Source: Marivirga lumbricoides (GTDB taxonomy: Bacteria > Bacteroidota > Bacteroidia > Cytophagales > Cyclobacteriaceae). From it: a DNA stretch of 64,000 nt. Each line of letters begins with the position of its first letter. The stretch's first letter is position 1. The stretch lies in contig NZ_BMEC01000004.1 of NCBI RefSeq assembly GCF_014636295.1, positions 83,926-147,925 of the forward strand, given 5' to 3'. The position numbers are program-made. Below are positions 24,001-36,000 of this stretch, piece by piece.

Positions 24001-27000
24001 GAAATATTTAAGATTGAAGAACATTTAGGTTTTAATGGAGAAGCAAAAAGCTTAAGTGCCAGAAGAGACTTTGAATACTGCAGAGCAATTGCCATGAAGT
24101 ATTTAAATGCCCCGTATCTGTGGGGCGGAAAATCTCTATTTGGAATTGATTGCTCCGGGTTTACCCAAATGGTATTTAAAATTTGTGGCTATAATTTATT
24201 AAGGGATGCGGCAGAGCAGGTAACGCAGGGAAAAGGAGTAGCTTCTTTAGCGGAATCACGTCCCGGTGACCTCGCTTTTTTCAGAAATGAAGATAAAAAA
24301 GTAGTTCACGTAGGCATTTTACTTGAAAATCAGACAATTATTCATGCTTCTGGCAAAGTAAAGGTGGATTTAATTGATGAAAATGGTATATTCAATGTCG
24401 AACAAAAACAGTATACACATTATTTAACAGATATAAAGCGGTTTTTAGCATGAAATAAGTGGTGAGGAAAGAAAAAGATGCTGTTGTTACTATCAAAAAA
24501 TAATAAGCAATAGCAGAGATCTGAGGGTAAAGAATATTTTTAGTCATTAAGGGTACCAGAATTTCATGCGGCTTTAGCGGTTTTTAAGTTGTCACTCAAA
24601 AGTAAGTAGGTACACATGAAAATAGGTAATAAGCGCGCCCTGGTTCTTAATCAAGATTTTTCACCCATTACTGTATGCAATATACAAAAAGCATTTTTGT
24701 TGGTGTATCTCAAAAAAGCGGAGTTAGTTGTAACAGATGAAATGCTTAAACTGAGAAGTATCAATAAAGCTTATCCTTTTCCCTCTGTGATCCGATTGAT
24801 AAGTTATGTAAGTATGCCTTACAAAGGTGTAATGCTAACCAGACAGAATATATTTAAAAGAGATGCCCATACATGCCAGTATTGTGGTGTTAGTAAAGAC
24901 CTCACTTTAGATCATCTTATTCCTCGGTCCAAAGGCGGAAAGTCATCCTGGAATAATTTGGTTACAGCATGCAAAAAGTGTAATGCCCGAAAAGGAGATG
25001 CCAAACCTGAGGAGAGCGGAATGAAACTCATGCGAATGCCTTTTAAACCTAGTTATGTGATGTTTATCAGGGATTTTTCGGGTACCATTAGTGATGGCTG
25101 GCTGCCATTTCTTAAAACAAAATCAATGCCTGTGTTAAAAGAGGGTTAGTAAGAATCCTAATTAGTAATTTACTTCACTTCTTGAGTACTGATTGTGGCT
25201 ATGCTTATTTTATCATTCTTAATTAAACTATGATTTTAATGCTGCGTAAGGGTAAATTAAAGAAATAGAATTACTCAAAACAGCTTAATTATACTACGCA
25301 ATAACATGTTTAAATTGTACACTAAAATTATTCAAATCTTTTATATGCTTCTTCTTTTTGTGGGTTTTTCTGCTTGTAATTCAGCTGAAAACAGGAATGA
25401 AGAAAATGATGAAGTGCAGGATGCCGATAAAACCGAAATGATGGAAGATGAGCATCAGATGGATCCCAGCGAAGGTGAAATGATGGAGGAAGAAGATGAT
25501 TCCTTACAAACTAATGATGAAGTAGGAATTATGTAAAGAAGCAGGTATGGCATTAGGTTGGGTGTTTGGAGTTCTTTTAATAATCATAGTGGTCGCTTCA
25601 ATTTTGGGAAGAGGCAGATCACGTTAGTTTTTAACTAGGTGTTTGCTATGGGTCATGAAACTAAGGAGAAAAATGGCAAGACAGTTGGTGAGTTGGGATA
25701 AGGGATAATGTGGTTCTTTTTAGCGACTATTATAGAGTTGCTTTACTTCCTCGGTCAAATTCATATGAATTTCTATCATTTACTGGCAGGAATAATTGGT
25801 TTTTATATCACTTAATAAATTTTATCGAGGAGGTGAAATGTTAAAAGATATAAGAAAATCCAACCCCCGGAGAGCCACAAACAGAAGTACTTTTAATTGA
25901 CTTCATCTCTCCTTGGGAAACTCCAAAGTAAAACTTGTGTTTAATCAGGCCTGCGATAATATACCACCTGCCTGAATAACCAATAATATCAGTTTTTTCG
26001 TTTGCTTAAAGCTTTCTCAATATTTTCCAGCCCCTCAACAAATAAAGTCATCTGACCTATGATTTGTGACATCCTATCAGAATCTCCTAAACCTTTGATT
26101 TTGTTATTCTTTGTAAAAGTCTCTTTTATTGTACTCCAACGCCTGGCTTTTTCTTCATCTAAATTATCCATGAGTTCTGCTAATTTTAAGAGGTTAGCCT
26201 CAGCGTCCGAGGTGAGTGTCTGTGATTCATTTTGATAATGATCCAGCAATAATTGAAGTACCTCTTTCTCTTTCATGATGGGAACTACCTGACTCATCAA
26301 TTTATTCATATCCCTGTAGGATCCTTGAAGCTTAAAAGGTGGCTCTGTTCTGTAGTCATCGCTCATGGCAGCAGAACGGATATATTCACCATTTACTTTA
26401 AGTACTACATCCCTGACATGCATAATTTTCTGCAGTACTTTAATGCAGTCCTGTATTTCCTGAGGAGATAGATTTCCTTCTAAAGCAGGTAGTGATTGCT
26501 CATTATTATCAATATAACTGACCAACTTGTATAGGTTTTCCATACCATACTGAGTGATGGATTTGAGATAATCATTAGAGGTTAACCCATTCTCTATCAA
26601 GCTTAGTCTAAATAAATCAGCTTTGTTGCTTGCTGTGTCACCTAAATTGTAAATATCTGCTCTATTGGAAAGCATATCCGGAATCTGGAATTTATCACCA
26701 CTTTCAGTGTAGGGGTTTCCTGCCATCACCACACAGAATCTTTTACCTCTGAAGTCATAAGTTTTAGCTTCTCCATTAAAAACCCCCTCTATTTTTCGTT
26801 GCCCATCTGCAAGAGAGATGAATTTTTGTAAAAACTCAGGGTTACAATGCTGGATGTCATCCAGGTAAAGCATTACATTGTCACTCATCTCAAAAGCAAG
26901 GTTTAACTTTTGTAACTCTTGTTTAGTGGCTGCATTTTTTGCTTCTCCAGGGTCAACAGAGGTTATCTCATGGCCTATCGATGGGCCATTTATTTTCATA

Positions 27001-33000: not shown

Positions 33001-36000
33001 AATGATTCAATCATAAATTTATTGTTTTAGTGGGGGTTATTAAAGTTTGTATTTTTGAGCTAGAAAATATTTTTTATCCTGCGACTCTTCAAGAATGATG
33101 ACTGTCTCATTGTAATTAACTACTTCCTCATCCATGGATTTGGCGTAGACTTTTATTACATCATCTTTAAATTGTATTTCTATCTGACCTATTTTATTGA
33201 GACTGATAGGGGAGATAACTCTGCCTGTTTTACCAATAAAATCAATCGCTTCTTCACCTTTGTGGTTAAACTGGGAATAGAGTTTTACAAAAGGCTTTGC
33301 TACCAGTTTGGTGATGAGCATTGCTACTACCAGGCCGGGAATGTATAATAGAAAACCAAATATGTTGCTCTCAATACCCAGAAGAGCGGTGATGTTTACA
33401 TTGAAGAGCCACATCGTAAATACTACAATGGTAATAATAAACATTATAGGTAATTCTCCTATGTAAAAGAAGGAGAGGAATGCACTCCAAAACCCACCGC
33501 CATCTAAATCTGCGGGCTCCACATCTGCATCTGTAAAGTCCAGATCAAAGCCTGTAAAGATTATCAGGATCCAGTAAAGAAGCATTATTCCTCCTAACAG
33601 TGTTAAAATAAAATTAGCAGGGGCTAATGCTATGTTAATAAGATTTTCCATTATAGTATTTTAATAAATTAGCTGTAAGCGATAGGTAAAAAGAATATAG
33701 TTACTTGTTTTGCCGCAAGGCAAAACAAGTTAAATTCCTAACTGCTTCTTCATTTGAGCCAGCTCGTCCTCTACAGAAATATTTTCTATTGCTTTATTCA
33801 TTTTGTCCTCATGTGTTTCACTTGCGGAAGCCATTTCTCCATAAGCCTGTGCCAATGCCTCATCCTGATTAACCTTATCCTTCATTCTCTCAAGCATTGA
33901 AACTACACTGTTGCTATCCATATTGGTCATTTGCTTGTTTATTTTCTGTGTGGCACTGCTCACTTTTACCCTGGCTTTTAGTGTATTAAGCTCATTTTCC
34001 CATTGGCTGATTCCTGTCTTAATGTTTTTCACATTTATTTCCAGTGAAGCCACCTGTTTTTCGAGAGTTGCTACATCTTCCTTCATGAGTAAAATATCTT
34101 TTGATAGTTTCGCTTTTTGTCTCAAATTTTCTCTCACAAAGTTTTCAGCTTCATTAGCCTCAATTTCACCGGATTGGCTTTTCTTCAATAGAAGTACAGA
34201 TTTATTCTGAAGGTCTTCTTCACGTTGGATGGCATCATTTAATTCACGATTACGCTTTATATGCATTGCTTTCACTTCAGCCAGAGAACGCATTGAAGCA
34301 TCCTGGTTCTCTCTCATGTCTCTAAGACCCTGCTCTATCATTTTTATAGGGTCTTCCAGCTTATCAATCGCGGAATTAGTTTCAGCTTGTCCTATTTTAA
34401 ATAATCTTCTTAATACATTCATGATTTTAGTTTTTTACTTTGAAAATGATACCAGTTCATTAGTGTATTCCGAAAGGAGTAATCCTAATGAGTTAATTGT
34501 ACTCTCTAACTCTTTTAAGTCGAGCGTCTCTACCTGTAAAGTATTTCGAAAAATCACCTTTTCTCCGGTTTCATCTAATACAAATGCTCCGAAAACGATA
34601 TCCCTGTTTTTAATCAGAAGCTGTTTAAAAATTTTCCCATCGTCTTTTACATCGAAAAGGTATTGCTCGATAATTAATATTGGAGTAGCAACTCCAATCA
34701 CCATATTTTTGACTCCTAAATCTTCATTTTCTATTACTAAGAGGTTGTCATCCTCGTTTTCATATAAAATGATTGATCCAAGCTCTAAAATATATTCGCG
34801 TACTTTTTTGTATGAGCTGTCCATTTAATTGGTTTTATAATTATGGGTGCTTTGTTGATTAATCATATGACAATATCAATAAAAAAAATTATATTTGCAA
34901 ATATTATTAGCATTTAATGTTAATTTTATTTGCATGATTTAAAATCATAATTCTGGAAATATGTCAAAGTATGGTGAGAATATTAAAAAAATAAGGAGTG
35001 TGAGGGGATTAACCCAATCCCATTTAGCAGATATGATTGATGTGAGTAGAGCGGTAGTAAGTTCTTATGAAGAGGGGAGGGCAGAGCCTAAAATTGAGAC
35101 AATTATTAAAACTGCTGAAATATTTCATATTTCAATTGACACACTTTTAAAAAAGAATATTACCGTAAACCAGCTTAGCGGTTTTGCCATTCCTGATATT
35201 CAAAACCCAATAAAATCCAGAGGTTCTCAGAAGAAGTCGGACTATCTGGCCGGATTTTTTCCAGAAGGAGTGGTTGTACTTAAGCCTGAGCAAATGGAAG
35301 CCAATAACTATGTTAGTGGCGGACAGCTGGTTTTTGGGTTGGAAAGCAAACCACTTAAGAATCAGTTGAGCATTGTAGAGTATAAGGACAATTTTGTATT
35401 AGGAACTGTTCATGCTGCTAATGAGAAAACAATTAAACTTGAAGACCGGGAGATACAGTTGCAGGACGTGAAGCGAGTACTAAAAGTATTTGGTATTTTT
35501 AATCCTGTTTCACTAATTGAACGATCTGAGAATAGGCTGCTATTGATGGAGCAAAGATTAAATGATTTAGAGAAGCGATTAAAGTTAGTGGAAAAGTCAC
35601 AAAAATGACAGTTGACTTTACCGCTCCTTCGGAAACTGCAAAGTAAAAGTGGTATTTACACCAGGGGTGGAGCTTGCATTGAGTTTTCCATTGTGTAGCT
35701 GCATGATCTGACGGGAAAGTGCCAACCCTATCCCTGAGCCTTCCTTTTTAGTAGTGAAGAAAGGAATAAAAATTCTTTCCAAAGCTTCAGGCACTATGCC
35801 TTCGCCATTATCTTCCACATTTATATAGTAAAAGTTCTGGGTGGTGATGATGGTAATGGACAATGATGGATTTTCAGTGTTATGTAACGATTCCTTAGCG
35901 TTTTTAATCAGGTTAATTAATATGAGTTGAATTTGCTCTTCATCCGCCCACAGCTTTACATCAATTTCGGGCAGGTTTAGTTGTAAGCTAATGCCTCCTT

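What the first reader, a model, noticed from the sequence alone, without database searches (positions are those of the whole stretch)
25909..35667. ~50-bp direct repeats (81% identical) bracket the whole XRE/PspA/flotillin/giant block
ttgacttcatctctccttgggaaactccaaagtaaaacttgtgttta lies just beyond the giant gene's 3' end. ttgactttaccgctccttcggaaactgcaaagtaaaagtggtattta lies at the XRE/histidine-kinase convergent junction. The two are 38/47 identical and in the same orientation. The right copy overlaps the C-terminus of the histidine kinase gene, so the left copy may be a fossil duplicate of that gene end. Direct repeats of this kind are the footprint of site-specific insertion (attL/attR-like target duplication). 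No recombinase is present, however. The pattern suggests that the ~9.7-kb module is a horizontally inserted cassette.
Basis: seen in the sequence. Interest (0 to 1): 0.6.

Follow-up and report, generated by a model that had tools for sequence, protein, structure and literature searches.

The report
Orphaned kinase gene tip marks insertion
The two ~47-bp repeats are the working 3' end of a histidine-kinase gene and a dead, displaced copy of that same end, left when a six-gene membrane-stress block was inserted there in Marivirga lumbricoides; this is an ordinary one-off recombination scar, not the attachment sites of a mobile element.

Summary
The repeat is real: 25897-25943 and 35612-35658, same orientation, 39/47 identical, unique in the window, with about 2.5e-6 such pairs expected by chance. 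On the minus strand the right copy is the last 13 codons, stop and 6 nt of the histidine kinase (VNTTFTLQFPKER*). The left copy reads LNTSFTLEFPKER* with no start codon. The left copy's flank is collinear, at an identical offset, with the native kinase 3' flank in a sister genome, so it is the orphaned original kinase tip.

Marivirga aurantiaca has the same flanks on both sides, one kinase end and no block.

The att/mobile-cassette reading fails. There is no recombinase, no terminal inverted repeats and no tRNA. GC, GC3 and codon usage do not deviate. The same six-gene block sits in other Marivirga genomes at a different, conserved locus (ispG | block | exo-NhaC) without flanking repeats. Its proteins are as diverged as the kinase.

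Best reading: a one-off, recombinase-independent insertion that kept the kinase intact and left a scar. I favour homology-anchored "C-terminal displacement"; an in-situ 47-bp target duplication is nearly as likely. Low interest.

The parts
35612..35658 (-). Right repeat: the functional 3' tip of the histidine-kinase gene (last 13 codons, TAA stop at 35618-35620, and 6 nt beyond)
   Evidence: Pfam HATPase_c reaches residue 451 of 452
25897..25943 (-). Left repeat: the orphaned, non-functional copy of the kinase 3' tip (reads LNTSFTLEFPKER*, preceded by an in-frame stop, no start codon)
   Evidence: collinear with the L005 kinase end
25944..25988 (-). 45-nt spacer between the giant gene's stop and the orphan tip; it folds into a hairpin (UCAGGC...GCCUGA) where sister genomes have the giant gene's 3' hairpin. 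This is the distal edge of the inserted segment
   Evidence: no canonical T-tract terminator was found
25989..30836 (-). Giant 1615-aa protein, DUF3686 + DUF7902 + AAA ('DNA repair ATPase' in NCBI naming); last gene of the block
30987..33014 (-). 675-aa flotillin-family protein (NCBI name). No Pfam hit here, but the N-terminal half of the orthologue in L013 hits Band_7
33040..33651 (-). 203-aa membrane protein (sub-threshold YqiJ_N similarity)
33730..34422 (-). PspA/IM30 family protein
34435..34824 (-). CesT_Tir_1 (YbjN-like) 129-aa protein; first gene of the minus-strand operon
34961..35608 (+). XRE-family HTH regulator, divergent from the operon. Its stop lies 3 nt from the right repeat. This is the proximal edge of the inserted segment
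35618..36976 (-). Histidine kinase (target gene), intact
37225..38622 (-). Sigma-54-dependent response regulator, partner of the kinase; syntenic in all relatives
25648..25815 (+). Remnant of the small membrane ORF ('s82') that directly follows the kinase in L005 and L006. Here it is broken by an in-frame TAA at 25699-25701. Part of the kinase's ancestral 3' flank
25306..25536 (+). orf76, a small acidic lipoprotein-like ORF; second gene of the ancestral kinase 3' flank (homologues in L005 and L006)
24616..25149 (+). HNH-domain protein, the first gene of the conserved TamB-tsaD-smpB-NlpC-HNH synteny block shared with M. aurantiaca (left anchor of the empty-site comparison)

Best explanation
The two repeats are two copies of the extreme 3' end of one gene, the histidine kinase at 35618-36976. 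The right copy is the end the gene uses today. The left copy is the kinase's original end, still attached to its original downstream neighbours (s82 remnant, orf76, HNH...). It is now separated from the gene body by 9.67 kb and is no longer functional.

The event happened in the M. lumbricoides lineage. A segment running exactly from the XRE stop codon to the hairpin behind the giant gene came to lie between the kinase body and the kinase's last 47 bp. That segment carries XRE, a CesT-like gene, PspA, a membrane protein, flotillin and the DUF3686-AAA giant. A second copy of the 47 bp kept the kinase reading frame complete. This was a single, recombinase-independent (illegitimate) recombination event, so the repeats are a scar and do nothing now.

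Favoured route (inferred, about 45%): homology-anchored import, that is homology-facilitated illegitimate recombination of the 'C-terminal displacement' type. DNA from a close relative in which kinase and block were already adjacent paired with the recipient through the kinase. It was joined illegitimately 47 nt before the recipient's stop codon.

Nearly as likely (about 35%): the block was copied or moved within the genome into a break in the kinase tip, with a 47-bp target duplication from template switching or fill-in of a staggered break.

Shown: the repeat, its coding register, the collinear native flank, the empty site, the absence of mobile-element features, and the block's other locus. 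Inferred: the molecular route and the source of the DNA.
For: The repeat is real, unique and far above chance. Both copies are in the kinase reading frame and share the lineage-specific ending PKER* plus the post-stop AGTCAA. The 13 orthologous kinases end differently (PKV*, PKI*, PRKK*, PKGR*...) and match the 47-mer at only 29-34/47.

The orphan tip, the s82 remnant and orf76 are collinear with the kinase end, s82 and orf76 of L005. The tip and s82 have the same offset, 11273.

Empty site: M. aurantiaca L002 has TamB-tsaD-smpB-NlpC-HNH | IS | HK-RR-acetyltransferase-transpeptidase, with a single kinase end.

The same six-gene block lies between ispG and exo-NhaC-DAO in M. harenae, M. tractuosa and L010; L011 shares the exo-NhaC side only. 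It lies 3.3 and 9.6 kb from the kinase in L005 and L006. It never has bracketing repeats or kinase-like sequence there.

There is no integrase or transposase in the block or its flanks, no TIRs, no tRNA and no Rfam element. Composition and codon usage equal the rest of the window.

For the homology-anchored variant: of the 9 nucleotide differences over 14 codons, 5 codons including the stop are silent and 3 are conservative (V/L, T/S, Q/E). P = 0.008-0.024 if all changes were neutral decay of one copy. The right-hand junction (HK converging on XRE) is what an L005-type arrangement becomes if its intervening island is deleted. Orphaned 3' ends produced by anchored displacement are documented for Rhs and T6SS loci (PMC5361080).
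Against: No genome with the kinase directly abutting XRE, the required donor arrangement, was found among 13 orthologous loci. No segment of the kinase is closest to the L005/L006 lineage.

The silent-substitution excess weakens once synonymous changes in the functional copy are allowed for. My hand estimate then gives P of roughly 0.05-0.1. Outgroup polarisation puts all three amino-acid changes in the orphan copy, as simple decay would.

Natural transformation is not documented for Marivirga (my own knowledge). A 47-bp target duplication is unusual for any simple insertion mechanism.

I could not inspect the M. lumbricoides ispG/exo locus. Relocation within the genome and import from a relative therefore remain unresolved.
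Confidence: 0.8

Rival explanations
1. attL/attR of an integrative element. A circular cassette carrying a kinase-tip-like attP was integrated into the kinase 3' end by a tyrosine or serine recombinase, encoded in trans or since lost. This would regenerate the gene end as many genomic islands do.
For: The geometry is right: direct repeats, one overlapping the 3' end of the target gene, and an empty site in a relative. The kinase 3' flank is variable in every Marivirga genome examined.
Against: No recombinase lies in the block or within about 10 kb on either side. The segment's edges coincide with the edges of the block as it occurs elsewhere, leaving no room for a lost integrase. The block at its usual locus has no flanking repeats and no kinase-like sequence. 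None of the other variable inserts behind the kinase duplicates the kinase end. The longest identical run between the copies is only 10 nt.
Confidence: 0.07
2. Segmental tandem duplication followed by deletions. An L005-like ancestor (HK-s82-orf76-island-XRE-block) duplicated the stretch from the kinase tip through the block. It then lost s82-to-island from the first copy and island-to-block from the second.
For: L005 and L006 show that the kinase, s82/orf76 and the block can be neighbours in this order. Tandem duplication naturally gives direct repeats.
Against: It needs three events with very tight deletion endpoints. In L005 and L006 the block is followed by Metallophos (and by Metallophos-exo-NhaC at the usual locus in M. 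harenae), not by HNH. In the window and in M. aurantiaca the HNH-to-TamB block follows the kinase region, so the ancestral order here was HK-s82-orf76-HNH without the block.
Confidence: 0.07
3. The left copy is the last remnant of a second, paralogous histidine-kinase gene that decayed in place and is unrelated to the arrival of the block.
For: Histidine kinases are numerous, and their C-terminal motif (G-x-TF-x-L-x-FP) is conserved.
Against: The two copies share lineage-specific PKER* and the non-coding AGTCAA after the stop. They are closer to each other (39/47) than to any orthologue (29-34/47). The flank of the left copy is the native flank of this same kinase in L005 and L006, at identical spacing in L005. 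No further kinase-derived sequence lies upstream of the 47 nt.
Confidence: 0.03
4. Chance similarity, or a common genome-wide motif (REP or terminator-like).
For: None beyond a small hairpin inside the left copy.
Against: Expected chance pairs are about 2.5e-6. There are only two copies in 64 kb and one per related locus, always the kinase end. There is no Rfam hit.
Confidence: 0.01

Closest known systems
C-terminal displacement / orphaned 3' ends in Rhs, CDI and T6SS effector-immunity loci, attributed to homology-facilitated illegitimate recombination (Jackson 2009 and Kirchberger 2017, PMC5361080; de Vries & Wackernagel 2002 and Prudhomme 2002, as cited there)
   Same: An intact gene is followed by inserted DNA and then by the displaced old 3' end, in the same orientation and still attached to its old downstream neighbours. 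No recombinase is involved. It is a rare one-off event.
   Different: Here the target is a housekeeping-type two-component kinase, not a polymorphic toxin. The new and old tips encode the same thing, so no new C-terminal function is gained. The cargo is a 9.7-kb stress-response block. Only one displacement is seen, not an array. The donor arrangement has not been observed.
Genomic islands, ICEs or prophages that integrate into the 3' end of a gene and carry a replacement end (attL/attR)
   Same: Direct repeats bracket the insert. One repeat completes the target gene, and the gene stays functional. An empty site exists in a relative.
   Different: There is no integrase, excisionase or mobility gene, no compositional signature, and no recurrence of the element at this site. 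The cargo occurs elsewhere without att-like repeats.
Campbell-type single-crossover integration of a circular molecule, which duplicates the homologous segment (observed experimentally as 109-950 bp lacZ duplications in E. coli, PMC3240628)
   Same: It produces direct repeats of exactly the shared segment on both sides of the inserted DNA.
   Different: 47 bp is near the lower limit for RecA-dependent crossover (my own knowledge). It also needs a circular intermediate already joining the kinase tip to the block.
Psp-like membrane-stress modules (PspA/IM30 with flotillin and a YqiJ/NfeD-like membrane partner; E. coli yqiJK and B. subtilis ydjFGHI, from my own knowledge)
   Same: The cargo contains PspA (Pfam), a flotillin-family protein and a small membrane protein in one operon.
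   Different: It additionally contains a CesT/YbjN-like protein, a divergent XRE regulator and a 1615-aa DUF3686-AAA ATPase. Its function is untested. No sigma-54 promoter was found in the 34825-34960 intergenic region despite the neighbouring sigma-54 activator.

Membership tests
Integrase-mediated integrative element (attL/attR at a gene 3' end) | Direct repeats bracket the element, and one overlaps the 3' end of the target gene | tested here: met
Integrase-mediated integrative element (attL/attR at a gene 3' end) | A tyrosine or serine recombinase gene inside the element, next to one att site | tested here: not met
   Pfam on all six block genes and flanking genes: none. ORF list for 20-42 kb: none.
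Integrase-mediated integrative element (attL/attR at a gene 3' end) | Empty site with a single repeat copy in a related genome | tested here: met
   M. aurantiaca L002, syntenic on both sides with a single kinase end. The site there holds a DDE transposase gene instead.
Integrase-mediated integrative element (attL/attR at a gene 3' end) | The same element recurs with the same att repeats in other genomes or sites | tested here: not met
   Six other block-bearing loci have no bracketing repeat longer than 14 nt and no kinase-tip-like sequence at the block edges.
Integrase-mediated integrative element (attL/attR at a gene 3' end) | Excision to a circular form with a reconstituted attB | not testable with these tools
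   Needs PCR on M. lumbricoides cultures.
Transposon / IS target-site duplication | Terminal inverted repeats and a transposase; a short target duplication (typically 2-15 bp) | tested here: not met
   No TIR at the segment ends; best inverted match is 8 nt. No transposase. The duplication is 47 bp.
C-terminal displacement by homology-facilitated illegitimate recombination | Orphan 3' fragment downstream of the intact gene, in the same orientation and with its native downstream flank | tested here: met
C-terminal displacement by homology-facilitated illegitimate recombination | The replacement tip derives from a different allele (divergence shaped by coding constraint in both copies) | tested here: inconclusive
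   5 silent and 3 conservative codon changes; P = 0.008-0.024 under pure decay, but about 0.05-0.1 by hand estimate when synonymous change in the live copy is allowed.
C-terminal displacement by homology-facilitated illegitimate recombination | A donor arrangement exists with the anchor gene directly followed by the cargo | tested here: not met
   Not found in 13 orthologous kinase loci from genomes and metagenomes. L005 and L006 come nearest, with an island in between.
Genome-wide repeated motif (REP / terminator) | Many dispersed copies | tested here: not met
   Two copies in 64 kb, one per related locus. The whole genome is not available.
Horizontally acquired island | Deviant composition or codon usage, or a phylogeny discordant with the host | tested here: not met
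   GC about 0.36-0.38, GC3 0.34 vs 0.35 (sd 0.06), codon-usage distance within range. Block proteins place M. lumbricoides as the outgroup, just as the kinase does.

The most novel reading that the evidence does not exclude
The Psp/flotillin/DUF3686 block behaves as a discrete cassette without a recombinase, and it has landed behind the same sigma-54 two-component pair (RR-HK) at least twice with different junctions: directly in M. lumbricoides, and 3-10 kb away in the L005 and L006 genomes. The L005/L006 block proteins cluster with genomes that keep the ispG context. That could mean selection for regulatory coupling of the block to this kinase/sigma-54 activator, echoing PspF-sigma-54 control of psp in E. 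coli. It could instead mean an unrecognised targeting of the kinase 3' flank as a capture hotspot.
Probability: 0.06. Interest if true: 0.5.

Novelty: new member of a known kind. Interest (0 to 1): 0.22.

Why it matters
The importance is mostly methodological. Direct repeats that bracket a gene block and overlap a gene end look like att sites. Here comparative evidence shows they are the live and orphaned copies of one gene tip, produced by a single illegitimate recombination. The finding also documents three points about Marivirga. The Psp/flotillin/DUF3686 block is a relocatable accessory module: it is present at two or three different places and is absent from both examined sites in M. aurantiaca. 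The 3' flank of this kinase is a hotspot of gene turnover. And insertion into a gene end can be tolerated when the end is duplicated. None of this opens a new biological question.

Tried and rejected
(1) Exact-protein look-ups of the window's kinase and HNH protein, and of the M. lumbricoides NhaC, found nothing on record. So I could not see other M. lumbricoides strains or that genome's ispG/exo locus.

(2) A metagenome scan with the kinase found no relative closer than 76% and no block next to the kinase.

(3) I looked for a sigma-54 promoter (TGGCAC-N5-TTGCW, up to 2 mismatches) in front of the block operon, to test a regulatory link with the neighbouring sigma-54 activator. There is none in 34825-34960, and window-wide counts are at chance.

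(4) Sliding-window identity along the kinase, to find a recombination breakpoint, gave no segment closest to the L005/L006 lineage.

(5) Terminal inverted repeats, tRNA genes, Rfam families and canonical terminators at the junctions: none.

(6) A full-text search for DUF3686 found no papers.

(7) I considered that the M. lumbricoides XRE (50-56% identical to others) was an outlier replaced during the event. I rejected this because XRE is fast-evolving in all genomes (58-78% among the others) and M. lumbricoides is the outgroup for every block protein.

(8) Extending the repeat beyond 47 nt gives only a doubtful CCTG(A/G)T match that needs an indel.

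
Full report
OBSERVATION. They are the longest two-copy direct repeat in 24-38 kb (family D2), with 39/47 identical. No further copy is found in the window with up to 3 mismatches or at >=30/47. The expected number of such pairs by chance in 64 kb is about 2.5e-6. The similarity does not extend beyond the 47 nt.

WHAT THE COPIES ENCODE. On the minus strand the right copy is the end of the 452-aa histidine kinase (35618-36976)...VNTTFTLQFPKER, TAA, then AGTCAA. 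In the same register the left copy reads LNTSFTLEFPKER, TGA, AGTCAA. It is preceded by an in-frame stop and has no start codon. Nine nucleotides differ over 14 codons. Five of the changed codons are silent, including TAA/TGA, and three are conservative (V/L, T/S, Q/E). The left copy is therefore a fragment of a kinase gene end, not a generic motif.

WHOSE END IT IS. The window comes from Marivirga lumbricoides: its XRE is 100% identical to GCM10011506_14690, and its flotillin equals WP_188461825. Thirteen orthologous kinase loci were recovered from genomes and metagenomes, at 64-79% protein identity. Each has one kinase end only. Those ends match the window 47-mer at 29-34/47 and finish differently (PKV*, PKI*, PRKK*, PKGR*). 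The two window copies share PKER* and the non-coding AGTCAA, so they are each other's closest relatives.

The DNA beside the left copy is the kinase's own ancestral 3' flank. Read in the kinase sense, 25150-25988 is collinear with L005 11318-12040. The orphan tip aligns to the L005 kinase end, and the small membrane ORF aligns to L005's s82, both at the same offset of 11273. orf76 follows (ORFs). The left copy is thus the kinase's original tip in its original context. The right copy is the tip the gene now uses.

EMPTY SITE. In M. aurantiaca (L002) the order is TamB-tsaD-thioesterase-smpB-NlpC-HNH, then a DDE transposase gene, then HK-RR-acetyltransferase-transpeptidase. This is the window's synteny on both sides, with one intact kinase end and no block. 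The kinase and its regulator are therefore in their ancestral place, and the 9.67-kb block is the inserted piece.

WHAT WAS INSERTED AND WHERE IT NORMALLY LIVES. The segment runs from 3 nt past the XRE stop (35606-35608) to the hairpin 45 nt past the giant gene's stop (25944-25988). That hairpin position corresponds to the giant gene's 3' hairpin in sister genomes. The segment carries:
- an XRE regulator,
- a CesT_Tir_1-like protein,
- PspA/IM30,
- a 203-aa membrane protein,
- a flotillin-family protein,
- a 1615-aa DUF3686-DUF7902-AAA protein.

The same six genes in the same order occur in M. harenae, M. tractuosa and one metagenomic contig between ispG and (Metallophos)-exo-NhaC-DAO; a second metagenomic contig (L011) shares the exo-NhaC side but has different genes on the XRE side. 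In the L005 and L006 genomes the giant-distal neighbour is the same (Metallophos). There, however, the XRE side faces the kinase region across 3.3 or 9.6 kb of variable genes. M. aurantiaca has exo, a 470-nt gap and then ispG, with no block and no remnant. So the block is an accessory, movable module within the genus.

AGAINST THE ATT / MOBILE-ELEMENT READING. No recombinase or transposase lies in the block or within about 10 kb. There are no terminal inverted repeats, no tRNA and no Rfam element at the junctions. GC, GC3 (0.34 vs 0.35, sd 0.06) and codon usage do not deviate. The one raised tetranucleotide value falls on the low-complexity flotillin region. At its other locations the block has no bracketing repeat longer than 14 nt and no kinase-like sequence. 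The other inserts found behind the kinase never duplicate the kinase end. Those inserts include an IS, toxin-antitoxin genes, an arsenic-resistance operon and an ABC permease. Block proteins place M. lumbricoides outside the tractuosa/harenae clade: giant 80-82% vs 88-98%, PspA 82-85% vs 86-96%. The kinase does the same, at 75-79% vs 80-84%. Nothing therefore points to a recent foreign origin.

MECHANISM (INFERENCE). The structure is intact gene, then cargo, then an orphaned old 3' end with its old neighbours. This is what 'C-terminal displacement' produces in Rhs and T6SS loci, where it is attributed to homology-facilitated illegitimate recombination (PMC5361080). Single-crossover integration of a circle likewise duplicates the shared segment (PMC3240628).

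I favour a homology-anchored import from a close relative in which kinase and block were already adjacent. An L005-type arrangement becomes exactly this if its island is deleted. This route explains four things: why the block sits at the kinase, the direct orientation, the absence of a recombinase, and the excess of silent differences (P = 0.008-0.024 under pure decay).

The case is not closed. No donor arrangement was found and the kinase shows no recombination breakpoint. The silent excess also fades, to roughly 0.05-0.1 by hand estimate, once synonymous change in the live copy is allowed, and all three amino-acid changes map to the orphan copy. An in-situ insertion with a 47-bp target duplication (template switching or a filled-in staggered break) is nearly as likely. 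A tandem duplication followed by two deletions is possible but unparsimonious.

VERDICT. The 'fossil gene end' and 'inserted block' parts of the interpretation are supported. The 'site-specific att' and 'horizontal cassette' parts are not. This is an ordinary, well-resolved recombination scar, a new example of a known kind, and of low interest.

Noticed in passing
window 25648-25815 (+): The homologue of the small membrane ORF that follows the kinase in L005 (82 aa) and L006 (88 aa) is broken here by an in-frame TAA at 25699-25701 (ELG*GIMW vs EFGYGIMW). It is probably a pseudogene, or a shortened ORF restarting at the ATG at 25708.
   Followed up: partly
loci L001-L008 and L016-L020, immediately 3' of the kinase: The kinase's 3' flank differs in every Marivirga genome. 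It holds a DDE transposase (L002), beta-lactamase-like fragments plus an ECF sigma factor (L003), a truncated FtsX permease, toxin-antitoxin genes and ArsR (L004), and an FtsX permease, HigBA and an ars operon (L006). This is a hotspot of gene turnover with no recombinase seen.
   Followed up: partly
L005/L012 and L006/L013 versus L009, L010, L015: The block lies 3.3 or 9.6 kb from the same RR-HK pair in two metagenome-assembled genomes. Yet their giant proteins cluster at >=90% with genomes that have the ispG context. Proximity of the block to this two-component system may therefore have arisen more than once.
   Followed up: partly
L023 12031-12500 (M. aurantiaca): The block's usual locus is empty in M. 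aurantiaca: exo, 470 nt, ispG. About 410 nt there match nothing in the block-bearing loci. Together with L002, this species has the block at neither of the two examined sites; the rest of its genome was not searched.
   Followed up: yes
window 25915 and 25923 (inside the left repeat): Two of the differences from the live copy (C->G and G->C in the kinase sense) are complementary. They turn a 4-bp stem into a perfect 6-bp hairpin, CUUUGG-N6-CCAAGG, on the minus strand. No T-tract follows. This may be chance.
   Followed up: no
window 43864-44238 and 44574-44948 (+): Two tandem DUF559 (Vsr-like endonuclease fold) genes both match the single DUF559 gene next to RR in L005. This is a local duplication in M. 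lumbricoides. The gene order RR ... transpeptidase-DUF559x2-acetyltransferase also differs from L002, L005 and L006.
   Followed up: partly
window 39082-42326 (+): Three genes (an extradiol-dioxygenase-like protein of 273 aa, an SDR of 263 aa and a 417-aa protein) sit between RR and the transpeptidase only in this genome. This is a second lineage-specific insertion, on the other side of the two-component pair.
   Followed up: no
window 34891-34904 and 34934-34948: The XRE / CesT-like intergenic region contains a perfect 14-nt palindrome, ATATTTGCAAATAT, and a second one, ATGATTT-A-AAATCAT. These are candidate operator sites for the XRE regulator. No sigma-54 promoter is present there.
   Followed up: no
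L013 6005-8032: In the L006 genome the flotillin gene is called as two ORFs (a 207-aa Band_7 part and a 410-aa part). This is a possible frameshift or an assembly error.
   Followed up: no
window 12349-12777 (-): Bacterial RNase P RNA class A (Rfam RF00010, 181.8 bits). It is the only Rfam hit in the window.
   Followed up: no
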